49,466 nt of DNA from Patescibacteria group bacterium (GTDB taxonomy: Bacteria > Patescibacteriota > Saccharimonadia > UBA4664 > SCTI01). The DNA is taken from positions 1-49,466 of the forward strand of contig SCTI01000001.1 in assembly GCA_004297735.1 (NCBI GenBank). The letters are read 5' to 3'. Below are positions 3,139 to 13,447 of this stretch, piece after piece (position 1 is the first letter of the stretch; each line of letters opens with the position of its first letter). The position numbers and the translations under genes were made by a program. The notes under the pieces are model-generated. The model was not told where the DNA came from. It worked only from the letters and a program-made list of their open reading frames with translations, and did no database searches.

Positions 3139-3340
3139 TCGGAATGTACATTGATAAGCGTAAGCGTATTTGCCGATCGGCCTCGAAAGGGCATCAGATT
3201 GGTTCGTTTGCGGTTGTCAATTGCCTGTCAGAAGTGTCGTACGGATCACCACTAAGGTCGAGGTGATTCTGCCCAAAGCGAAAGCAAAGGGGAAAGACAT
3301 GGTACGACAGAGCCCACGTTAAGCTCTGCTAAAGCAGAGT
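3139..3340 (+). promoter_or_regulatory. long structured 5' leader, candidate riboswitch or attenuator controlling the LysM-CHAP hydrolase gene
   Basis: About 200 nt lie between the promoter and the ORF. A three-way junction is closed by GTCGTAC (3236-3242) / GTACGAC (3302-3308). Its arms are ATCACC/GGTGAT (3245-3250 / 3262-3267) and CCC-AAA-GC-GAAA-GC-AAA-GGG (3272-3291). Two mutually exclusive hairpins follow: AGAGC/GCTCT (3309-3313 / 3323-3327) and CTCTGC/GCAGAG (3324-3329 / 3334-3339), directly before the start. Confidence 0.5.
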
Positions 3341-4561
3341 GTGGGGTGGAGAAAAGTCATTAGTAGAGAAGTTAGTGGCTCGCTGCCTGCTATAGGCATT
3401 GGGCTATCCAACATCCAAGACGCTTCCAAACTAAAACTTCCAAACACAACTCAACAAAATACTCAAACCATACCGGTACCGGCACAGGGGCTAACCCCAG
3501 TCGGTCAGGTAGTTCAAAAGGCTGGTATTGTAGCCACTCACAGCGCTTTTCCGCGTTTTGCCACCCATTTAGCCGCCGTGGCTTTGGTTGGCGCAGTGGT
3601 TCTAGCCGGCTCAACAACTCACTCCGCCCGTCTTAACCCACTTGCAAACCAAGTTGGGTTTGGTTCAACCATCGATAAGGCCGCCGAAATGGAAGTGGCC
3701 GCTGCGGTTGCTTCGCAGACCGACTTACTGGTTGAATCTGACATTTCAAGTAACGCTAAGACTCTGAACTCTCAGGTTGGCTTGCCAACCTCCGGAGATG
3801 CTACTTTGGCACAGCGCCAGGTGGTTGACACCAGTGGTTCATCGGCTCGTGGCGTAACCAGCTACACCGTTCAGCAGGGTGATACCCTGGCCAGTGTGGC
3901 GGCTAACTTTAACATCACCACCGATACTATTCGCTGGGCCAACGGTAACATGGCGCCTACGGCCGAGCTGAAGCCAGGCCAGAACCTGGTCATCCTGCCG
4001 ATTTCGGGATTACAGCACCAGGTTAAGGATGGTGAAACCGCCCAGAGTTTGGCCGATCACTACAGCTCAAACGCAGAGCAGATCATTGCCTTTAACAACG
4101 CTGAGGTGGATGGCTTGAAGCCAGGCCAGGTCATTGTGGTACCCGATGGGGTGTTCCCCGAAGCTGCTCCAGTAGCCCGCGCTGCCGCAAACACACCGGC
4201 AGCTACACCGGCGCCAGCTGAATCAAGCGCTCCAGCTAAGGTGAGCTTGGCCCCAGGTAGCCGCAACAACACCTACTCGTACGGTTACTGTACTTGGTAC
4301 GTTGCTAGCAAGCGAGCAGTGCCAGGTGGTTGGGGTAACGCTCGGTCATGGTATGCTAACGCTCAGGCCTCTGGTATTGGCGTCGGTAGCGCACCTCGAC
4401 CGGGAGCAATCGCTTGGACCGGCGCAGGCTACTACGGTCACGTGGCGTACGTAGAGAGCGTCAGTGGAAACATGGTAACGGTGAGTGAGATGAACTATAA
4501 CGGCTGGAACCGCGTTTCAAGCCGAACCGTACCCGCCTCTACCTTCCGTTACATCTACTAA
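3341..4561 (+). CDS. peptidoglycan hydrolase with two LysM domains and a C-terminal CHAP amidase/peptidase domain
   Basis: LysM repeats YTVQQGDTLASVAANFNITTDTIRWAN and HQVKDGETAQSLADHYSSNAEQIIAFNN. An Ala/Pro linker follows. The CHAP-like C-terminus is YGYCTWYVASKR...GHVAYVESV. A TM anchor sits near aa 75-95. The GTG start at 3341 is uncertain and the real start may be further downstream. Confidence 0.85.
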   Translation: MGWRKVISREVSGSLPAIGIGLSNIQDASKLKLPNTTQQNTQTIPVPAQGLTPVGQVVQKAGIVATHSAFPRFATHLAAVALVGAVVLAGSTTHSARLNPLANQVGFGSTIDKAAEMEVAAAVASQTDLLVESDISSNAKTLNSQVGLPTSGDATLAQRQVVDTSGSSARGVTSYTVQQGDTLASVAANFNITTDTIRWANGNMAPTAELKPGQNLVILPISGLQHQVKDGETAQSLADHYSSNAEQIIAFNNAEVDGLKPGQVIVVPDGVFPEAAPVARAAANTPAATPAPAESSAPAKVSLAPGSRNNTYSYGYCTWYVASKRAVPGGWGNARSWYANAQASGIGVGSAPRPGAIAWTGAGYYGHVAYVESVSGNMVTVSEMNYNGWNRVSSRTVPASTFRYIY

Positions 4562-6096: not shown

Positions 6097-6666
6097 ATGG
6101 CTACTCATGAGGCGCGACGTAAGCCGGAGCGTGATGCAAGTGATTTCCAGGGCGAAGGTATGCCTGGGTGGATGCGGGAGCAGCTCCGTCGTGAACGGTT
6201 CCGCCAGAAGTCAAAAAAGAAGCAGGATGCTGGTCCGCCAGTTCCGCCACCAATTGAGGACGCTATTTTGATGGCGGCTTCAGATCTGCGTGACTTTCCA
6301 ATGTACCCAGTGATTGTCGACAGAAGCAGGCACATTGTGGATTTTGACTGGCGTAAGCCTGAGCACTGGGGAGCCACCCATCAGCTTGGCCAGTCTGGAA
6401 TAGCAGCGTACCTGCTGTACTACATGACCACTCTTTCAGACAGGGAGATTGCCGATCTGATTGGCGTAAGTGCGCCAACGGCGCGAAAGCGCCGCGAGAT
6501 GATTGAGTGCGATTTGGCTCGAGAGCTAAAGACCGACGACAAGCGTACTTGGTGGGATTGGGTCGAAGAGTCGATGGAGAAGGCCCAAGAGATTGCCGAG
6601 TGCGCTATCCTGTGGTTGGACGGCGTAGAGTATCCAGCGGATTGGGGTGCCTCGGCTCAAGCATAA
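6097..6666 (+). CDS. hypothetical protein with a C-terminal helix-turn-helix (sigma-70 region 4 / LuxR-like)
   Basis: 189 aa. The HTH-like segment is LSDREIADLIGVSAPTARKRREMIE. The N-terminus is basic and Pro-rich. The DNA is visibly richer in GC than the flanks. Confidence 0.55.
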   Translation: MATHEARRKPERDASDFQGEGMPGWMREQLRRERFRQKSKKKQDAGPPVPPPIEDAILMAASDLRDFPMYPVIVDRSRHIVDFDWRKPEHWGATHQLGQSGIAAYLLYYMTTLSDREIADLIGVSAPTARKRREMIECDLARELKTDDKRTWWDWVEESMEKAQEIAECAILWLDGVEYPADWGASAQA

Positions 6667-6668
6667 AG

Positions 6669-6695
6669 GGTCCCCGGAACAAGTTTCTGGGGACC
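6669..6695 (+). terminator. stem-loop after the HTH gene (no clear U-tract)
   Basis: GGTCCCC (6669-6675) pairs with GGGGACC (6689-6695). Confidence 0.4.
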
Positions 6696-6736
6696 TCAAG
6701 CTACCATGAATTATATGTTCAAACCTCTAAAAAATC

Positions 6737-6765
6737 TTGAAAAAAGGCTAGTAGAGTTGTATTGT
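6737..6765 (+). promoter_or_regulatory. sigma70-type promoter (TTGAAA-17-TATTGT)
   Basis: TTGAAA at 6737-6742, a 17-nt spacer, then TATTGT at 6760-6765. Confidence 0.45.
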
Positions 6766-6816
6766 TAGCCTAGGTAGCAACCATAACCACCATCGTCGTA
6801 CGAAAGGGGTGTGGTC

Positions 6817-7296
6817 ATGGTGCAGAAGCTTAACAACTACGAGGGGCCGCCTGGCTCAATGCAGTGCATGCCGGATCTGCCGGAGTGGGTCAGCAGGGGG
6901 ATGGCCTGCGAGGCTGAGGTGAGAAAGGGGGTGATCACCTGGAAGCCCTGTGGGCGCGGGCACATCCGTGAGGTCACCCGGACCTCAATCGCTCCAGTTA
7001 GCGGGTCGCATGATCACCCTGAAAGGTGTGTCAGGTGCGACATGGACTACGTCGAGATCTTCGACACGCTTGACTGGGACGATGAGTCGAGTCGGGTCAT
7101 TCTCGAACTGGTCTGCAACAACTGCGGCTGGAGTGGCGAAGTACGGCTGACCATAGAACAGGACAGCCGACTGATCGCCATCAACCGCGAGCAGCGCAAT
7201 CAAGTTGCTCTCGACGACTACAACTGCTTTGCTATGTGGGCGCGACGGTTCACTCTGGCGCTGCGGGAGGGTCACGTCAAGCCCGAAGACTTCTAG
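6817..7296 (+). CDS. hypothetical zinc-ribbon protein (two CxxC pairs)
   Basis: The ORF is open from 6811 (GTG). ATG at 6817 sits 7 nt after AAAGGGG. It contains CVRC and CNNC motifs. The region is very GC-rich: a hand count of the line 6841-6900 gives 42 of 60 G+C. A perfect 22-nt palindrome follows. Confidence 0.5.
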   Translation: MVQKLNNYEGPPGSMQCMPDLPEWVSRGMACEAEVRKGVITWKPCGRGHIREVTRTSIAPVSGSHDHPERCVRCDMDYVEIFDTLDWDDESSRVILELVCNNCGWSGEVRLTIEQDSRLIAINREQRNQVALDDYNCFAMWARRFTLALREGHVKPEDF

Positions 7297-7305
7297 CTAC
7301 CTGAT

Positions 7306-8156: not shown

Positions 8157-8233
<77 letters not shown>

Positions 8234-10350: not shown

Positions 10351-13233
10351 ATGAAACGTTATAGTCCAAAGGAAATTGAACCCAAGTGGCAAAAGATTTG
10401 GGAAGAGACCAAGCTGTATCAAACCAGCGATGATGATCCTCGCCCAAAATGGTACCAACTGGAATTCTTTCCCTATCCATCTGGCGTAACCATGCATGTT
10501 GGCCACGTCCGCAACTATGTTATATCGGATGCGTTTGCTCGATATAAGCGCATGACTGGCCACAATGTGCTTCACCCGATGGGGTGGGATGCCTTTGGTT
10601 TGCCGGCCGAGAATCAAGCGATTAAGACGGGCTTGCCAGCGCGTAAATCAACCGAGCAAAACATTGCCGTGTTTAAGCGTCAGCTAAATCAAGTTGGCCT
10701 GTCGTATGACTGGAGTCGCGAGATCAACTCGTCAGAGCCAGATTACTATCGCTGGACACAGTGGCTGTTCCTATTATTCTACGAGCGCAAACTTGCCTAT
10801 AAAGCCGAGTCGGCAGTTAACTGGTGCCCACACGACAAGACCGTGCTTGCAAATGAACAAGTCATTAAAAAAGATGGTAAGAATGTTTGCGAGCGGTGTG
10901 GGCATGAAGTTGAGAAGCGCAACCTGTCGCAGTGGCTCTTTAAGATTACCGATTATGCTGATCGCTTACTGGAAGACCTTGAGAAGATTGATTGGGCCGA
11001 CAACGTAAAGGCAATGCAGCGCAACTGGATTGGGCGAAGTGTTGGCGCTGAAGTTGAGTTCAAGTTGAAAAATGGACCTCAGGATGAGCTCGTCGCCTTT
11101 ACTACTCGCGCCGACACCTTGGCGGGTGCTACCTTCCTAGTGATTTCACCCGAGTTGGCTCAGACCTGGGTCGAAAAGGGATGGAAGGCGTCAGCGGAGG
11201 CTCAAGAATATATTACGGGCGCAGTAAGTAAATCGGAAATTGAGAGGCAAGAGACCGACCGTAAGAAGACCGGAGTAAATACTGGAATTATCGCAGTCAA
11301 TCCTCTTACTAAGGAAGAAATACCGGTATGGGTGGCCGATTACGTGCTGGGTGGGTATGGCACCGGTGCGATCATGGCGGTACCGGCTCACGATCAGCGT
11401 GACAATGAGTTTGCGCAGGCCTTTGAGCTGCCAATTAAGACTGTGATTGAGCCAATTACTGGTACTCCGCAAAAAGATCCGGTGTTTCGTCGCAGTATTG
11501 TAGCGCTTGTTGAGGATCCTGAGACTGGCGATGTGCTATCTATCAAATGGAATACTCAGCACGGAGAAAACTACCTTCTAGTTGGAGGTGGGGTGGAGGA
11601 AGGCGAGGATCTAATTGAGGCTGCTCGCCGCGAAATAGCCGAGGAGACAGGTTATACCGATGTTGAGTTTATTGAACAGATGGAGAATGTACATCACAGC
11701 TACTTTGCATCTGCTAAAAATATTCCGCGTGAAATCATTGCGACTGGTCTGAAATTTAAGCTTAAGAGTCACGACAAACAACCTTTGCAGCTTGAAGCAA
11801 GCGAGCAAGGTCGAATGGTTGCAGAGTGGCTAACCCCGAAGCAGTTTAGTAACCTTGTAACGGATGAGCTACATCAAAGAGTATTTGAACGGCTAATGTT
11901 TGGCACGATTTACAGTGGCGAAGGTATCATGACGAGCTCAGGCACCTATGACGGCCTGAGCTCAAGCGAAGCGCGTAAGAAAATCACGGCCGAGGTTGGT
12001 ACTGAGCGAGTTAACTATAAGATGCGAGATTGGCTGATTAGTCGTCAGCGTTACTGGGGCGCACCGATTCCAATTATTCACTGTCCAAAGTGCGGTATCG
12101 TTCCGGTGCCAAAAGACCAGCTCCCCGTTGAACTGCCCGAGCTTGAGTCTTATCATCCAAGCGATGATGGTCGTTCTCCGCTGGCGCGAGTTAAGGAGTG
12201 GCTACATACCGAATGTCCACAGTGTGGCGGCCCAGCTGAGCGCGAGACCGATACTATGGATACATTTGTTGATTCAAGCTGGTACTTTTTGCGCTTTACG
12301 GATCCAAATAATGACAATGCACCATTTGATGGTGTAAAGGCCAATCATTGGCATCCTGTAGACACCTATGTCGGTGGTGTAGAGCACGCGGTGGCTCACC
12401 TTTTGTTCGCGCGATTCTGGACCAAAGTTCTGCATGATGCCGGGCTGATTAATTTTGAGGAACCGTTTAAACGCTTACGTAATCAGGGTATGATCGGCGG
12501 TAGCGATGGCCGCAAAATGGGTAAACGCTACGGTAACGCCGTAACCCCTGATGATTTAATTGACCAGGGTTATGGCGCAGACGCCCTACGTCTATATGAA
12601 CTATTTATTGGCCCGTATGATCAGGGGGTCGACTGGAATCCGACTGGTATTGATGGCACTAAGCGCTTTTTGAATCGGGTGTGGGCGCTGACACAAGAGC
12701 ATCTCGAGGCCCGCAATGAGGGAGAGAGTGGTGATAGTAAGCTTGAGACCGCGCTTGCGGTTACGGTTCACAAGGCCATTAAGAAAGTCACCTTCGACTT
12801 GGAGCAGTTTGGTTTTAACACCGCCATCGCCGCAATGATGGAAACGGTTAATGAGATGTATAAGCTCAAGACCGAACTGCCGCTTGGGAGCGAGGCTTGG
12901 CAGCAAAACTTGAAGTTGCTGGTACAGATTTTAGCCCCATTTGCACCCCACATTACCGAGGAGCTGTGGCAGCAGCTGGGCGGTGAGACTAGTGTGCATG
13001 TGGCCAGCTGGCCGGCCTTTGATGAAAAGCTCGTGCAGGACGAACTGGTCACGGTGGTGGTTCAGGTGAACGGTAAGGTTCGCGCTAAGCTTGAGGTTGG
13101 CGCTGATGCCGGTGAAAATCAGGTGAAGGAGCTGGCCGAGAAGAGTGACTCAGTCAAAGCCCAGCTGGAAGGCAAAGAGATTGTGAAGACAATCTATGTC
13201 CCGGGTAAGATCCTTAACCTAGTTGTAAAGTAG
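10351..13233 (+). CDS. leuS: leucine--tRNA ligase carrying an inserted Nudix hydrolase domain
   Basis: 960 aa. HIGH-type motif HVGHVRNY. Editing-domain motifs [12 protein letters not shown] and [25 protein letters not shown] is present, and the KMSKS variant is KMGKR. Codons at about 11455-11916 encode an extra roughly 150-aa segment with a perfect Nudix box. Confidence 0.95.
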   Translation: [960 protein letters not shown]

Positions 13234-13258
13234 AAAGCTTTGTTTTAAAATACAAACA

Positions 13259-13269
13259 GTTTCGTAGGC
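13259..13269. repeat. direct repeat copy 1 (GTTTCGTAGGC)
   Basis: Identical 11-mer to 13340-13350. It overlaps the foot of the terminator hairpin. Confidence 0.8.
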
Positions 13270-13301
13270 ATAAAAGCGCGGTTTCGACCGTGCTTTTATG
13301 C
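13268..13301. terminator. bidirectional hairpin terminator between leuS (+) and the tRNA-like gene (-)
   Basis: GCATAAAAGCGCGG TTTCGA CCGTGCTTTTATGC forms a 14-position stem with one mismatch. A/T runs sit in the stem arms. Confidence 0.7.
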
Positions 13302-13304
13302 GTC

Positions 13305-13376
13305 TGGTGGAGCTACCGGGGATCGAACCCGGCGACATGGTTTCGTAGGCCTTACCGCGACACCAGCCGTAGCCCC
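13305..13376 (-). tRNA. atypical tRNA-like gene (tRNA-Ala-type acceptor and T arm, non-canonical D/anticodon region)
   Basis: The minus strand reads GGGGCTA CG GCTGGTGTCGCGG T AAGGC CTACGAA ACCAT GTCG CCGGG TTCGATC CCCGG TAGCTCC A CCA. The acceptor is a perfect 7 bp with G3:U70 and A73, the T arm is canonical, and CCA is encoded. The D region is too short and the anticodon stem is weak, so I could not fold a standard cloverleaf. Confidence 0.5.
13340..13350. repeat. direct repeat copy 2 (GTTTCGTAGGC)
   Basis: It lies inside the tRNA-like gene and covers the candidate anticodon loop (minus strand GCCTACGAAAC). Confidence 0.8.
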
Positions 13377-13395
13377 CTACTTTGCTCCAACCAGA

Positions 13396-13423
13396 CATAT
13401 AGACCATATCAGCCCGGCATTAA
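13396..13423 (-). promoter_or_regulatory. candidate promoter of the tRNA-like gene (TTAATG-16-TATATG on the minus strand)
   Basis: -35 is the reverse complement of 13418-13423 and -10 is the reverse complement of 13396-13401. The predicted TSS is near 13389, about 12 nt upstream of the mature 5' end. Confidence 0.4.
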
Positions 13424-13447
13424 CAGATTCTTAAGCCGCCCAACCCC

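What the first reader, a model, noticed from the sequence alone, without database searches (positions are those of the whole stretch)
13259..13423. Stand-alone tRNA-like gene: perfect tRNA-Ala acceptor/T-arm, non-canonical body, Arg-like ACG loop, flanked by an 11-nt direct repeat
The minus strand 13376 to 13305 (72 nt) reads GGGGCTA CG GCTGGTGTCGCGG T AAGGC CTACGAA ACCAT GTCG CCGGG TTCGATC CCCGG TAGCTCC A CCA.

Canonical features seen in the sequence:
- The acceptor stem is 7/7 paired and carries G3:U70 plus A73, the AlaRS identity set. It is the same acceptor as tRNA-Ala(GGC) at 8157.
- The T stem has 5 Watson-Crick pairs with a canonical TTCGATC loop.
- CCA is encoded.

The middle is not canonical:
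- Only 13 nt sit where a D arm needs 15-17.
- The best D stem (CGGC/GCGG with a G.G mismatch, loop TGGTGTC) leaves no positions 8-9.
- The only 7-nt loop with U33 is CTACGAA (anticodon ACG, Arg), and it is closed by a stem with only 3 of 5 Watson-Crick pairs.
- An alternative fold is one long irregular hairpin (TGGTgTCG...CGAaACCA). That resembles the tRNA-like domain of tmRNA more than a tRNA.

The unit has its own candidate promoter (TTAATG-16-TATATG, giving a roughly 12-nt 5' leader) and a strong terminator (13268-13301). It therefore looks like a real transcription unit.

The 11-mer GTTTCGTAGGC occurs at 13259-13269 and 13340-13350, so the anticodon-loop segment is duplicated just beyond the terminator. 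That pattern is expected after site-specific recombination inside a tRNA gene.

Possible interpretations, all inference:
- a chimeric or decaying tRNA;
- an Ala-accepting RNA that reads Arg codons (deliberate mistranslation);
- an alanyl donor that is not used by the ribosome, for example for cell-wall cross-bridges.
Basis: partly seen in the sequence, partly recalled or inferred. Interest (0 to 1): 0.75.

Follow-up and report, generated by a model that had tools for sequence, protein, structure and literature searches.

The report
Mini-tmRNA-like gene with antisense partner
The odd "tRNA" is a real, conserved 72-nt RNA gene that looks like the alanine-accepting head of the ribosome-rescue RNA (tmRNA) without its message, and the nearby 11-base repeat marks a predicted small antisense RNA that pairs with it; this two-RNA unit recurs in Saccharibacteria and related tiny bacteria and I found no description of it.

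Summary
The sequence is as described. ARAGORN and Rfam at gathering thresholds do not call it, so it is not an ordinary tRNA.

It belongs to a conserved family of about 72-nt compact cloverleaves:
- a 7-bp acceptor stem with invariant G3:U70, A73 and encoded CCA;
- a 4-bp D stem with a 4-nt UGGN loop directly abutting the acceptor stem;
- a variable central hairpin and no connector nucleotides;
- a canonical T arm.

Covariation supports the fold. A covariance model built without the window scores it 75.9 bits. Rfam's tmRNA model aligns it end to end (31 bits, E 1e-8) with the whole message part deleted.

The 11-nt repeat is not a recombination scar. In Patescibacteria members, a degenerate copy of the gene's 5'/central part sits beside a hairpin terminator. 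An opposite-strand sigma70-like promoter points into that copy. This predicts an antisense sRNA that co-varies with each gene's central arm.

The "Arg ACG anticodon" has no statistical support.

Best reading, as inference: an accessory, alanine-charged, message-less tmRNA-like RNA gated by an antisense RNA. Expression, charging and function are untested. The family is patchy, sometimes multi-copy, and absent from the same locus in close relatives.

The parts
13305..13376 (-). Mature 72-nt compact tRNA-like / tmRNA-TLD-like RNA (RNA-1). Acceptor 5' strand 13376-13370; D arm 13369-13358 (CGGC-UGGU-GUCG); central arm 13357-13333; T arm 13332-13316; acceptor 3' strand 13315-13309; ACCA 13308-13305.
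   Evidence: Sequence. The family structure is supported by covariation. Leave-one-out covariance model: 75.9 bits, E 1.7e-16. Rfam tmRNA aligns end to end at 31.0 bits, E 1.1e-8. Not called by ARAGORN or by Rfam gathering thresholds.
13333..13357 (-). Variable central hairpin, the analogue of tmRNA helix P2 or of an anticodon arm. It has 8 stacked positions with one A.A mismatch and a 9-nt loop CCUACGAAA. It contains the in-gene copy of the repeat (13340-13350).
   Evidence: The anticodon-arm test is not significant.
13377..13399 (-). Predicted 5' leader. GUCUGGUUGGAGC (13396-13384) is complementary to the 3' acceptor strand plus CCA plus trailer (GCUCCACCAGAC).
   Evidence: The precursor fold 13400->13300 has an MFE of -46.7 kcal/mol (z -3.45) with the leader paired to the 3' end. 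The same leader-CCA pairing is seen in Saccharimonadales and Peregrinibacteria members, including compensatory changes, but not in other clades.
13406..13434 (-). Candidate promoter of RNA-1: TTAAGA (13434-13429), 17 nt, TGATAT (13411-13406).
   Evidence: By analogy with the conserved GTTAAGA...TTAAT...TAnnAT region upstream of family genes. It is not reported by the consensus scan. Inference.
13268..13301 (.). Bidirectional hairpin shared by RNA-1, leuS and the predicted antisense RNA: A-tract, GC-rich stem, T-tract.
   Evidence: Folds at -24.1 (+ strand) and -20.1 (- strand) kcal/mol, z about -5.5, with 0 of 200 shuffles folding as well. The strict terminator scan misses it.
13259..13269 (+). 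Seed of the predicted antisense RNA, GUUUCGUAGGC. It is perfectly complementary to RNA-1 nt 27-37 (the loop of the central arm). On the minus strand it is the second copy of the direct repeat. It is the core of a degenerate partial copy of the gene (gene nt 18-42).
   Evidence: Seed duplex -19.4 kcal/mol, matched by 0 of 1000 shuffled seeds. Local alignment of the gene against its downstream flank scores 25, reached by 3 of 2000 shuffles.
13223..13251 (+). Candidate promoter of the antisense RNA: TTGTAA-17-TAAAAT. It overlaps the leuS stop codon (13231-13233). The -10 element ends 7 nt before the seed.
   Evidence: Reported by the consensus scan at 9/12. Equivalent promoters lie at the same relative position in L121 (TTGACC-17-TAGAAT, 10/12), L238 (TTGAAA-17-TATAAT, 11/12) and L089 (TTGAAA-17-TAATAT, 9/12). 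They are visible by eye in nearly all Saccharimonadales units.
13258..13303 (+). Predicted roughly 45-nt antisense sRNA (RNA-2), consisting of a 5' seed plus the terminator hairpin. Alternatively the same sequence acts as the 3' UTR of leuS mRNA.
   Evidence: No expression data. Inference.

Best explanation
**What it is.** The element is an intact member of an accessory family of about 72-nt RNAs. They have the architecture of a tmRNA tRNA-like domain closed by a short hairpin, that is, a message-less "mini-tmRNA" or compact tRNA-Ala-like cloverleaf. In Patescibacteria this gene comes as an RNA-only two-gene unit together with a cognate antisense small RNA.

**Shown by sequence analysis.**
- Family membership.
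- The compact cloverleaf with an invariant G3:U70, A73 and CCA.
- End-to-end similarity to tmRNA with the internal 304 model positions missing.
- A leader complementary to the 3' end.
- A degenerate partial copy of the gene lying beside a hairpin terminator.
- An opposite-strand sigma70-like promoter aimed at that copy.
- Co-variation between each gene's central arm and its own copy.

**Inferred mechanism.**
1. RNA-1 is transcribed from TTAAGA-17-TGATAT.
2. Its leader, which masks the CCA end, is removed by RNase P.
3. AlaRS charges the mature RNA through G3:U70 and A73.
4. Like a tmRNA tRNA-like domain, it is delivered (with SmpB and EF-Tu) to ribosomes with an empty A site. It can accept the nascent chain but offers no reading frame. 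It would therefore rescue or occupy stalled ribosomes without tagging.
5. RNA-2 starts at about 13258 with an 11-nt seed. It pairs with the loop of the central arm and can extend into the arm and D region. This would unfold or destroy RNA-1 and so gate its activity.

**Why I read it as accessory.** The distribution is patchy, some genomes carry several copies, the locations vary, and the partners are cognate. This fits an accessory, addiction- or defence-like module better than a housekeeping gene.

**Rough likelihoods.**
- Real family member: 0.9.
- Antisense partner real: 0.6.
- Alanine-charged: 0.6.
- Acts on ribosomes as a message-less tmRNA-like adaptor: 0.3.
For: **Family.**
- Pattern scans recovered the same architecture in Saccharimonadales, other Patescibacteria, Peregrinibacteria, Acidimicrobiia, Acidobacteriota, Planctomycetota, Chloroflexota and other MAGs.
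- G3:U70 is present in 24 of 24 aligned members although the pattern did not force it.

**Structure.**
- 79% of cells are paired against 62.6% in shuffles (0 of 500 shuffles reach this).
- The covariation score is 0.405 against 0.141 in shuffles and 0.05-0.24 in slid controls.
- In the D stem 3 of 4 pairs covary; in the T stem 3 of 5 covary.
- MFE folds of most non-Saccharimonadales members (Peregrinibacteria, Acidimicrobiia and several others) give the same four-arm shape; the window and most Saccharimonadales members do not fold into it on their own.

**Membership of the window.**
- The model built without the window scores it 75.9 bits. The canonical tRNA-Ala genes score 47.6 and 36.0.
- There is only one copy in the window.

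**Kinship with tmRNA.**
- RF00023 aligns to model positions 1-374 at 31.0 bits, E 1.1e-8, for the window. Relatives score 28-29 bits.
- The family loop motif UUGCGAAAC equals E. coli ssrA nt 27-35. The ssrA 5' end I used was verified at 100% identity.

**Antisense partner.**
- Same-strand matches between the central arm and its own flank beat all or all but one of 52 non-own controls in 14 of 18 Saccharimonadales units (0 controls in 12, 1 control in the window and L234), and in 4 of 5 Peregrinibacteria/Patescibacteria units (the fifth, L187, is matched by 2 controls). This was seen in no Acidimicrobiia unit; among the other and phage/alpha groups only two isolated units (L153, L216) came as close.
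- Opposite-strand promoters sit at a fixed position.
- Both layouts, divergent and convergent, keep the order promoter, anti-arm, terminator.
- In the window, the seed duplex is -19.4 kcal/mol, matched by 0 of 1000 shuffles.

**Leader-CCA pairing.**, and for the window.

**Accessory nature.**
- The element is absent from the leuS-yceD spacer of the closest relatives, which share 76-86% LeuRS identity.
- It is absent from 54 Patescibacteria leuS loci.
- A strict family pattern finds only 13 loci among the GTDB species representatives, with two copies in some MAGs.
- Neighbouring genes are unrelated housekeeping genes, with no integrase, transposase, RT or smpB.

**Precedent.** Jakobid mitochondria have a tmRNA without a message domain, thought to be limited to freeing stalled ribosomes (PMC3590771).
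Against: - There are no expression, processing or charging data.
- All promoters and terminators are consensus-level predictions.
- The family was collected with a pattern derived from the window (GGGG, CTGG, GGTTCGA, CC, CCACCA). Part of the model score is therefore built in.
- The tmRNA score is below Rfam's gathering score (31 against 47).
- The D region forms a covarying helix, which is tRNA-like rather than tmRNA-like.
- I could not check whether the same genomes carry a normal ssrA and smpB.
- In the window the complementarity is only 11 perfect bases. The extended duplex is imperfect, and the extension of the partial copy is weakly significant.
- No other example with the window's exact constant parts was found in JGI metagenomes.
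- The isolated 72-mer folds only slightly better than shuffles (z -1.6).
- Non-Patescibacteria members lack the antisense copy, so that feature is not universal to the family.
Confidence: 0.5

Rival explanations
1. Conditional mistranslator. The RNA is a structurally compact but decoding tRNA. AlaRS charges it and it reads non-alanine codons: Arg CGN if the loop is read as CUACGAA (anticodon ACG), or Val GUR if it is read in the register of the family motif NGC-G-A, which gives UAC. The antisense RNA masks the anticodon arm.
For: - The loop CUACGAA has Y32, U33 and R37.
- The lengths D stem 4 bp plus arm 8 bp and acceptor 7 bp plus T 5 bp give two 12-bp stacks. From my own knowledge this geometry is similar to tRNA-Sec and allo-tRNAs.
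- Related compact G3:U70 RNAs in phage and alphaproteobacterial tRNA arrays carry clean Ala anticodon loops. One viral example carries CUA.
- The antisense RNA targets exactly this arm.
Against: - A canonical 5-bp/7-nt anticodon arm is no better than shuffled arms in the window (81 of 300 shuffles) and in most members.
- The loop register varies from 7 to 12 nt.
- Many members have C at position 33.
- There are no nucleotides 8-9, 26 or 44-48.
- The phage/alpha group has a different, 7-nt D loop and is probably a separate lineage.
- Rfam scores tmRNA above tRNA for this locus.
Confidence: 0.12
2. Alanyl donor outside translation. The RNA is charged by AlaRS and used by a transferase, for example for peptidoglycan cross-bridges.
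For: - The Ala identity set is intact while the body is non-canonical.
- A Mur-ligase-type gene lies 4 kb away in the window.
- From my own knowledge, dedicated non-proteinogenic tRNAs for cell-wall synthesis exist in Firmicutes.
Against: - No Fem/MurM-type or other aminoacyl-tRNA transferase recurs next to family members. Neighbours are diverse housekeeping genes.
- The T loop and elbow motifs needed for ribosome and EF-Tu type interactions are fully conserved.
- This idea does not explain the cognate antisense partner.
Confidence: 0.08
3. Pseudogene or recombination scar. It is a decaying or chimeric tRNA or tmRNA fragment left by integration or excision of a mobile element, and the 11-nt repeat is the att core.
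For: - There is a direct repeat with one copy inside the gene.
- The element is present or absent among close relatives.
- No exact relatives of the window's version were found.
Against: - All helices are intact and the element scores 75.9 bits against a model built from other phyla.
- Covariation is present in the family.
- The repeat covers the central/5' part and not the 3' end up to CCA, which from my own knowledge is what tRNA/tmRNA att sites cover.
- No integrase or mobile genes lie nearby.
- The same layout, with a conserved promoter on the other strand, recurs in many independent loci.
Confidence: 0.07
4. Split tmRNA. RNA-1 is the acceptor piece and the opposite-strand RNA is a separately transcribed coding piece. 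The coding piece docks on the central arm and supplies a very short tag frame.
For: - RNA-2 docks where helix P2 would be.
- In several Saccharimonadales units a short frame ends in UAA/UAG just before, or in the loop of, a hairpin. I noted this by reading the sequences.
- From my own knowledge, two-piece tmRNAs exist.
Against: - In the window RNA-2 has no room for a frame between the seed and the hairpin.
- The stop codons are explained by U plus A-tract terminators and are not universal.
- The family is patchy and multi-copy, unlike an essential ssrA.
Confidence: 0.05
5. An ordinary tRNA that hand analysis failed to fold.
For: The acceptor and T arms are canonical.
Against: - ARAGORN finds the three true tRNAs but not this one.
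- The Rfam tRNA model is below threshold, and the best clan hit is tmRNA.
- The D loop is 4 nt and there are no connector nucleotides.
Confidence: 0.02

Closest known systems
tmRNA (SsrA), tRNA-like domain
   Same: - 5' GGGGCU., a CUGG..UCG motif after the acceptor stem, G3:U70, A73 and encoded CCA.
- A GGUUCGAU T loop.
- A helix at the position of P2.
- The Rfam tmRNA model aligns end to end.
- The loop motif resembles E. coli ssrA nt 27-35.
   Different: - No mRNA-like domain, tag frame or pseudoknots; the whole RNA is 72 nt.
- The D region forms a covarying 4-bp helix.
- Patchy and sometimes multi-copy rather than single-copy and universal.
- Comes with a cognate antisense RNA gene and a leader that pairs with the CCA end.
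Reduced mitochondrial tmRNA of jakobids (no mRNA-like region; contiguous form in Jakoba libera)
   Same: It is a tRNA-Ala-like domain only, with G.U at position 3 and discriminator A. It is thought to free stalled ribosomes without tagging (PMC3590771).
   Different: - The jakobid form is organellar, mostly circularly permuted and two-piece, and CCA is added after transcription.
- The window's RNA is bacterial (Patescibacteria and others), contiguous, and has CCA encoded.
- The window's RNA is accessory and is paired with an antisense gene.
- No independent descent link was tested.
tRNA-Ala
   Same: The acceptor stem is identical to the window's own tRNA-Ala(GGC). It has a 5-bp T stem, a T loop and CCA.
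   Different: - The D arm has a 4-nt loop.
- There are no nucleotides 8-9, 26 or 44-48.
- The central arm is not a statistically recognisable anticodon arm.
- It is not detected by tRNA finders.
tRNA-Sec / allo-tRNAs
   Same: - A 4-nt D loop reading UGGU.
- Long D-plus-anticodon stack.
- Weak Rfam tRNA-Sec hits.
- Acidimicrobiia relatives sit between selA and selB.
   Different: - A 7/5 acceptor branch, not 8/5, 9/4, 8/4 or 9/3.
- A 4-bp D stem, not 6 bp.
- No long variable arm and no UCA.
- The Ala identity set, not Ser.
Trans-encoded antisense pairs of type I toxin-antitoxin loci, and RNA-RNA (type VIII) toxin-antitoxin pairs
   Same: - A short direct repeat in the DNA makes two separately transcribed RNAs complementary.
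- Partners are cognate and co-varying.
- Multi-copy, patchy and variably located.
   Different: - There is no toxin ORF.
- The targeted RNA is a tRNA-like alanine acceptor.
- Toxicity is untested.

Membership tests
Canonical tRNA (RF00005 / ARAGORN) | 7-bp acceptor stem, 5-bp T stem, GTTCRANYC T loop | tested here: met
Canonical tRNA (RF00005 / ARAGORN) | Recognised by tRNA covariance or heuristic finders at their thresholds | tested here: not met
   ARAGORN finds 3 tRNAs but not this locus. No Rfam tRNA hit at gathering score. No tRNA hit is listed at E up to 10 in the local scan.
Canonical tRNA (RF00005 / ARAGORN) | Connector nucleotides 8-9 and 26, variable loop 44-48, and a D loop of 7-11 nt | tested here: not met
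   The four helices abut with no connector nucleotides, and the D loop is 4 nt.
Canonical tRNA (RF00005 / ARAGORN) | Anticodon arm of 5 bp plus a 7-nt loop with U33 and R37 | tested here: inconclusive
   CUACGAA has Y32, U33 and R37, but only 3 of 5 stem pairs form. 81 of 300 shuffled arms do as well, and the loop register varies across the family.
tmRNA (RF00023) | tRNA-Ala-like domain: G3:U70, A73, CCA, T arm, D-loop-like CUGG..UCG, helix P2 | tested here: met
   End-to-end alignment to RF00023 positions 1-374 at 31.0 bits, E 1.1e-8. G3:U70 in 24 of 24 family members.
tmRNA (RF00023) | Score at or above Rfam's gathering threshold | tested here: not met
   31.0 bits against 47. Not found by ARAGORN's tmRNA search.
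tmRNA (RF00023) | mRNA-like domain with resume codon, tag reading frame, stop codon and pseudoknots | tested here: not met
   304 internal model positions are replaced by 5 nt. The RNA is 72 nt in total.
tmRNA (RF00023) | Works with SmpB; single-copy and near-universal in a lineage | tested here: not met
   - No smpB in the window (tblastn) or next to family genes.
- A strict family pattern finds only 13 loci among GTDB species representatives, with two copies in some MAGs.
- SmpB binding itself cannot be tested here.
Jakobid-type message-less tmRNA (RF02544) | tRNA-like domain only, with no coding region and Ala identity elements | tested here: met
   Description of the jakobid RNA in PMC3590771.
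Jakobid-type message-less tmRNA (RF02544) | Sequence and structure match to the mt-tmRNA model | tested here: inconclusive
   It is not listed. However, overlapping hits of one clan are suppressed, so a weak hit could be hidden.
tRNA-Sec / allo-tRNA | 13- or 12-bp acceptor branch in 8/5, 9/4, 8/4 or 9/3 form, 6-bp D stem, long variable arm | tested here: not met
   The branch is 7/5, the D stem is 4 bp and there is no variable arm. The tRNA-Sec hit is only 16.2 bits.
Trans-encoded antisense RNA pair (type I-like locus layout / RNA-RNA toxin-antitoxin) | Partner RNA gene on the other strand with its own promoter and terminator | tested here: inconclusive
   Consensus promoter hits sit at the expected place in the window and in 3 of 3 scanned relatives, and by eye in nearly all units. 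Hairpins are present. There are no transcript data.
Trans-encoded antisense RNA pair (type I-like locus layout / RNA-RNA toxin-antitoxin) | Complementarity that is specific to each pair | tested here: met
   Own-flank matches beat 52 non-own controls in most Patescibacteria units. Examples include L239 at 22 of 22 and L245 with a changed loop in both copies.
Trans-encoded antisense RNA pair (type I-like locus layout / RNA-RNA toxin-antitoxin) | One partner is toxic and the other neutralises it | not testable with these tools
   This needs expression experiments.
att-site scar of an element integrated in a tRNA/tmRNA gene | Repeat spans the 3' part of the gene to its end; integrase or element genes are adjacent | tested here: not met
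   The repeat covers gene nt 27-37, extending to about nt 18-42. Neighbours are leuS, yceD, nusB and rnc. No integrase lies near any family member.

The most novel reading that the evidence does not exclude
An RNA-only addiction or defence module. The effector is an alanine-charged, message-less tmRNA head that enters ribosomes and blocks or diverts ribosome rescue, or mis-inserts alanine. It is held in check by a short-lived cognate antisense RNA. This would make it a toxin-antitoxin pair in which the toxin is a tRNA-like adaptor.
Probability: 0.2. Interest if true: 0.9.

Novelty: new variant of a known kind. Interest (0 to 1): 0.72.

Why it matters
tmRNA is regarded as one near-universal bacterial RNA that always combines a tRNA head with a message. 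The only message-less form on record is in jakobid mitochondria.

A bacterial family of message-less heads would be different in three ways. It is accessory, it is sometimes multi-copy, and it is paired with its own antisense RNA. This would show that the alanine-accepting head can be used on its own and regulated at the RNA level.

The window gives a concrete, small and testable system: two RNAs totalling under 130 nt.
- Can a tmRNA head alone rescue or poison ribosomes in cells?
- How do the very small-genome Patescibacteria tune translation quality control?

It also shows that tRNA and tmRNA finders systematically miss this class. It supplies a covariance model and a locus signature with which to find more members.

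Tried and rejected
- **Direct similarity searches.**
  - nhmmer with the 72-mer against 80 leuS loci found nothing.
  - megablast of the locus against phage genomes found nothing.
- **Flawed first scan.** The first collection scan used a pattern with one N too few before CCACCA, so it could not match the window itself. Its "2 hits" are meaningless. I corrected the pattern.
- **Search for the window's exact version.** A scan of JGI metagenomes for the window's constant parts found nothing.
- **Synteny.** The closest relatives lack the element at this site, so no orthologous alignment was possible.
- **Ideas considered and dropped.**
  - Classical integrase att repeats, target-site duplication, diversity-generating retroelement template/variable repeats (the differences are not adenine-specific), DNA operators for looping, and RNA-guided insertion. 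None of these fits a repeat copy that is always next to a terminator with a conserved promoter on the other strand.
  - Housekeeping two-piece tmRNA. The family is too rare for this.
  - tRNA-Sec. The Acidimicrobiia relatives sit between selA and selB, but the defining features are not met.
  - The bulged acceptor stem I first inferred for the main Saccharimonadales family. It was an artefact of starting the RNA one base too late. With the preceding G, the stem is a perfect 7 bp with G3:U70.
- **Standard tmRNA in relatives.** ARAGORN's tmRNA scan of all fetched loci found standard tmRNAs only in unrelated phyla. That sample is too small to say whether Saccharimonadales carrying this RNA also have a normal ssrA.
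- **Literature.** Searches, and reading, found no description of such a bacterial family. Much subscription literature is not covered.
Full report
**1. The observation**

The minus strand 13376->13305 reads GGGGCUACGGCUGGUGUCGCGGUAAGGCCUACGAAACCAUGUCGCCGGGUUCGAUCCCCGGUAGCUCCACCA.
- The acceptor stem is 7/7 paired, with G3:U70, A73 and encoded CCA. It is identical to that of tRNA-Ala(GGC) at 8157.
- The T arm is canonical.
- ARAGORN finds the window's three true tRNAs (Ala-CGC, Ala-GGC, Gln-CUG) but nothing here.
- Rfam at gathering thresholds finds nothing here.
- A local low-threshold scan gives only weak hits: mascRNA 20.9 bits and tRNA-Sec 16.2 bits.
- The isolated 72-mer folds only a little better than shuffles (z -1.6).
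- GTTTCGTAGGC occurs exactly twice in the window, at 13259 and 13340. Such an 11-mer repeat arises in 40 of 20000 shuffled flanks.
- The hairpin 13268-13301 is very stable on both strands (z about -5.5). The simple terminator scan misses it because the T-run lies inside the stem.

**2. Context**

The window is a chromosome piece of a Saccharibacteria/Saccharimonadales (Patescibacteria) bacterium.
- Its LeuRS is at most 66% identical to GTDB species representatives, all of them Saccharimonadales-type MAGs.
- The neighbouring genes are leuS, yceD, nusB, a NUDIX gene, rnc, rpsP, a KH-domain gene and trmD.
- The element lies in the 258-nt leuS-yceD spacer, convergent with leuS.
- In the closest relatives available (LeuRS 76-86% identical) the spacer is either 47 nt with nothing in it, or holds a different hairpin.
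- No member was found in 54 Patescibacteria leuS loci.

The element is therefore not a fixed feature of this locus.

**3. A family**

My first pattern scan was faulty. The corrected pattern recovered the same architecture in many genomes and in metagenomes. A last strict scan added more.

Members occur in:
- Saccharimonadales and other Patescibacteria;
- Peregrinibacteria;
- Acidimicrobiia;
- Pyrinomonadaceae;
- Phycisphaerae;
- Dehalococcoidia;
- Rhodobacterales;
- other lineages.

MFE folds of most members outside Saccharimonadales give one shape; the window and most Saccharimonadales members do not fold into it on their own, and for them the shape rests on the family alignment and the covariance models:
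- acceptor stem of 7 bp;
- a D stem of 4 bp directly abutting it, with a 4-nt loop UGGN;
- a central hairpin of about 25 nt;
- a T arm directly abutting that hairpin.

On a gapless 24-sequence alignment this structure is well supported:
- 79% of cells are paired, against 62.6% in shuffles (0 of 500 shuffles reach this).
- The covariation score is 0.405, against 0.141 in shuffles and 0.05-0.24 for slid partners.
- D-stem pairs 9-18 and 10-17 switch between GC, CG, AU and UA.
- G3:U70 is present in 24 of 24 sequences although the pattern did not demand it.
- The register of the central arm varies.

A covariance model built without the window scores it 75.9 bits (E 1.7e-16). The two real tRNA-Ala genes score 47.6 and 36.0 bits. 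An exhaustive search finds no second copy in the window.

Caveat: the family was fished with a pattern taken from the window, so about 24 positions agree by construction.

**4. Kinship with tmRNA**

When searched in a larger context, Rfam's tmRNA model aligns the window end to end.
- The alignment covers model positions 1-374 at 31.0 bits, E 1.1e-8, with 304 internal positions replaced by 5 nt.
- Saccharimonadales relatives behave the same way, at 22-29 bits.
- These alignments also showed that the main Saccharimonadales family starts one G earlier than I had assumed. That gives a perfect 7-bp acceptor stem with G3:U70. My earlier "bulge" was an artefact.
- The family's conserved loop motif (U)UGCGA(A/C) matches E. 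coli ssrA nt 27-35 (UUUGCGAAAC). I verified that ssrA sequence at 100% identity. The window has CCUACGAAACC at that place.

The score is below Rfam's gathering threshold (47) because everything between the two ends of a tmRNA is missing. The RNA has the head of a tmRNA and no message. The only message-less tmRNA on record that I could find is the jakobid mitochondrial one. It is thought to be restricted to freeing stalled ribosomes (PMC3590771). The 2025 tmRNA database paper does not mention a bacterial form.

**5. The repeat is the footprint of an antisense partner**

The 11-nt repeat is not unique to the window.
- In Patescibacteria members, a degenerate copy of the gene's 5'/central part lies just outside the transcription unit. 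It always sits within 0-28 nt of an A-tract/hairpin/T-tract terminator. The copy is best preserved over the central arm.
- There are two layouts. In most Saccharimonadales the order is terminator, copy, about 100 nt, gene. In the window, Peregrinibacteria and L154 the order is gene, terminator, copy.
- Each copy matches its own gene's arm, although arms differ between paralogues of one genome. Examples: L239 matches 22 of 22; L235 matches 19 of 21; L245 has the changed loop CUGUCAC in both the gene and its copy.
- Own-flank matches beat all or all but one of 52 non-own controls in 14 of 18 Saccharimonadales units (all 52 in 12; one control ties in the window and L234). The same holds for 4 of 5 Peregrinibacteria/Patescibacteria units; L187 is tied by 2 controls. 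No Acidimicrobiia unit shows it, and in the other and phage/alpha groups only L153 and L216 come as close.
- On the opposite strand a sigma70-like promoter points into the copy, and its -10 element ends a few bases before the anti-arm. The promoters are TTGACC-17-TAGAAT in L121 (10/12), TTGAAA-17-TATAAT in L238 (11/12), TTGAAA-17-TAATAT in L089 (9/12) and TTGTAA-17-TAAAAT at 13223-13251 in the window (9/12). Equivalent boxes are visible in nearly all Saccharimonadales units.

Both layouts therefore keep the order promoter, anti-arm, terminator. This predicts a small RNA whose 5' part is complementary to the variable arm.

In the window that RNA would start near 13258. It would carry GUUUCGUAGGC, complementary to RNA-1 nt 27-37, and end in the 13268-13301 hairpin.
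- The seed duplex is -19.4 kcal/mol, matched by 0 of 1000 shuffled seeds.
- An imperfect extended duplex reaches -36.9 kcal/mol.
- The partial copy extends over about gene nt 18-42 (3 of 2000 shuffles reach the score).
- The same sequence is also the 3' UTR of leuS, so the partner could be the leuS mRNA tail.

A direct repeat that makes two separately transcribed RNAs complementary is, from my own knowledge, the layout of divergent type I toxin-antitoxin loci.

**6. Other conserved features**
- In Saccharimonadales and Peregrinibacteria the 5' leader is complementary to the 3' acceptor strand, CCA and trailer, with compensatory changes (gccggaag/cuuccggc against gccagaag/cuucuggc). Other clades lack this pairing.
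- In the window the leader GUCUGGUUGGAGC (13396-13384) pairs with GCUCCACCAGAC. The precursor fold has z -3.45.
- A conserved GTTAAGA...TTAAT...TAnnAT region lies upstream of family genes.
- The nearest genes of 20 Patescibacteria units are unrelated housekeeping genes such as purH, purB, ftsZ, yebC, recJ and FAD oxidases. There is no integrase, transposase, reverse transcriptase, smpB or Fem-type transferase.
- The strict family pattern finds only 13 loci among all GTDB species representatives. Some MAGs have two copies, and one locus has a tandem pair.

**7. Is the central arm an anticodon arm?**

The window's loop can be read as CUACGAA, giving ACG. However, a 5-bp/7-nt arm with Y32, U33 and R37 is no better than shuffled arms, both here (81 of 300) and in most members. 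Loop sizes range from 7 to 12 nt.

In the register of the family motif NGC-G-A, relatives would carry Ala anticodons and the window would carry UAC. The register is not fixed, so no codon assignment is justified.

A separate group picked up by the same pattern does have clean Ala anticodon loops, and one member has a CUA loop. This group comes from phage and alphaproteobacterial tRNA arrays. It has a 7-nt D loop, no antisense copy and no leader pairing. I treat it as a different lineage.

**8. Interpretation**

Shown:
- a real, conserved, structurally coherent RNA gene of tmRNA-head type with the complete alanine identity set;
- a conserved locus architecture that predicts a cognate antisense RNA;
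- an accessory distribution.

Inferred:
- maturation by RNase P and charging by AlaRS;
- action on ribosomes as a message-less tmRNA-like adaptor;
- gating by the antisense RNA, possibly through RNase III.

Rivals: a conditional mistranslating tRNA, a non-ribosomal alanyl donor, a scar or pseudogene, a split tmRNA, and an ordinary tRNA. I rank them in that order. The last is contradicted.

The main gaps are the absence of any transcript or charging data, and the unknown presence of a normal ssrA and smpB in the same genomes. A third gap is that the family was ascertained with a window-derived pattern.

Noticed in passing
window 10351-13233 (+): The leucyl-tRNA synthetase carries a NUDIX hydrolase domain (aa 379-508) inserted after the editing domain. 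The same domain set appears in most Saccharimonadales homologues listed.
   Followed up: partly
window 3223-3351 (+): There is a sub-threshold match to the lysM-TM7 RNA motif (35.9 bits against a gathering score of 61.5, E 0.008). It lies just upstream of the ORF at 3341-4561.
   Followed up: no
L082 4593-4663, L128, L140, L142, L162, L124 (Acidimicrobiia MAGs): Members of the same compact G3:U70 RNA family sit between selA and selB in every Acidimicrobiia locus fetched that still carries those genes (L156, the seventh sequence-distinct locus, does not). The best Rfam hit there is tRNA-Sec (31 bits, below threshold). The loops read YUGAWAY, with no UCA anticodon. There is no antisense copy and no leader pairing.
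   Followed up: partly
L209 46-127, L218 1742-1823, L219 2411-2492 (viral contigs): These viral contigs carry an 82-nt RNA with textbook tmRNA ends (GGGGGUGGAUCUGGUUUCGACGGGG ... CUCGGACCACGGUUCGAUUCCGUGCACCUCCACCA) and no room for a tag reading frame. It looks like a phage-borne message-less tmRNA head.
   Followed up: no
L215 308-379 (viral contig): This is a compact G3:U70 tRNA-like gene whose central loop reads UUCUAGA (CUA). It is a possible alanine-inserting amber suppressor in a phage.
   Followed up: no
L083 5895-6117 and L084 5758-5972 (closest relatives, leuS-yceD spacer): The spacer keeps the family-promoter-like GTTAAGAATTTNTTAAA. This is followed by a perfect 13-bp hairpin (CCCAAAGTTCGGAAT..ATTCCGAACTTTGGG) instead of the RNA gene. 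It could be a lost gene, a replaced gene or a different small RNA.
   Followed up: partly
L184 about 6500-7300, L206 (two copies), L238 3930-4619: An ORF fusing a pterin-4a-carbinolamine-dehydratase-like domain to RNase H lies directly downstream of the family RNA gene in four units. In L206 the RNA gene and the ORF are duplicated together in tandem.
   Followed up: partly
L121/L164/L180/L132 upstream regions: In one Saccharimonadales subgroup the predicted antisense RNA has an extra 5' module. It consists of GGUUGGGCUUGG followed by a covarying hairpin with loop UUAUUA or UAAUAA. In L180 a perfect 12-bp long-range helix closes it.
   Followed up: no
L182 121-192: Here the copy of the central arm lies upstream in inverted orientation (CGTACTTGACAT, 12 nt). 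The complementary sequence would therefore be on the same strand as the gene.
   Followed up: no
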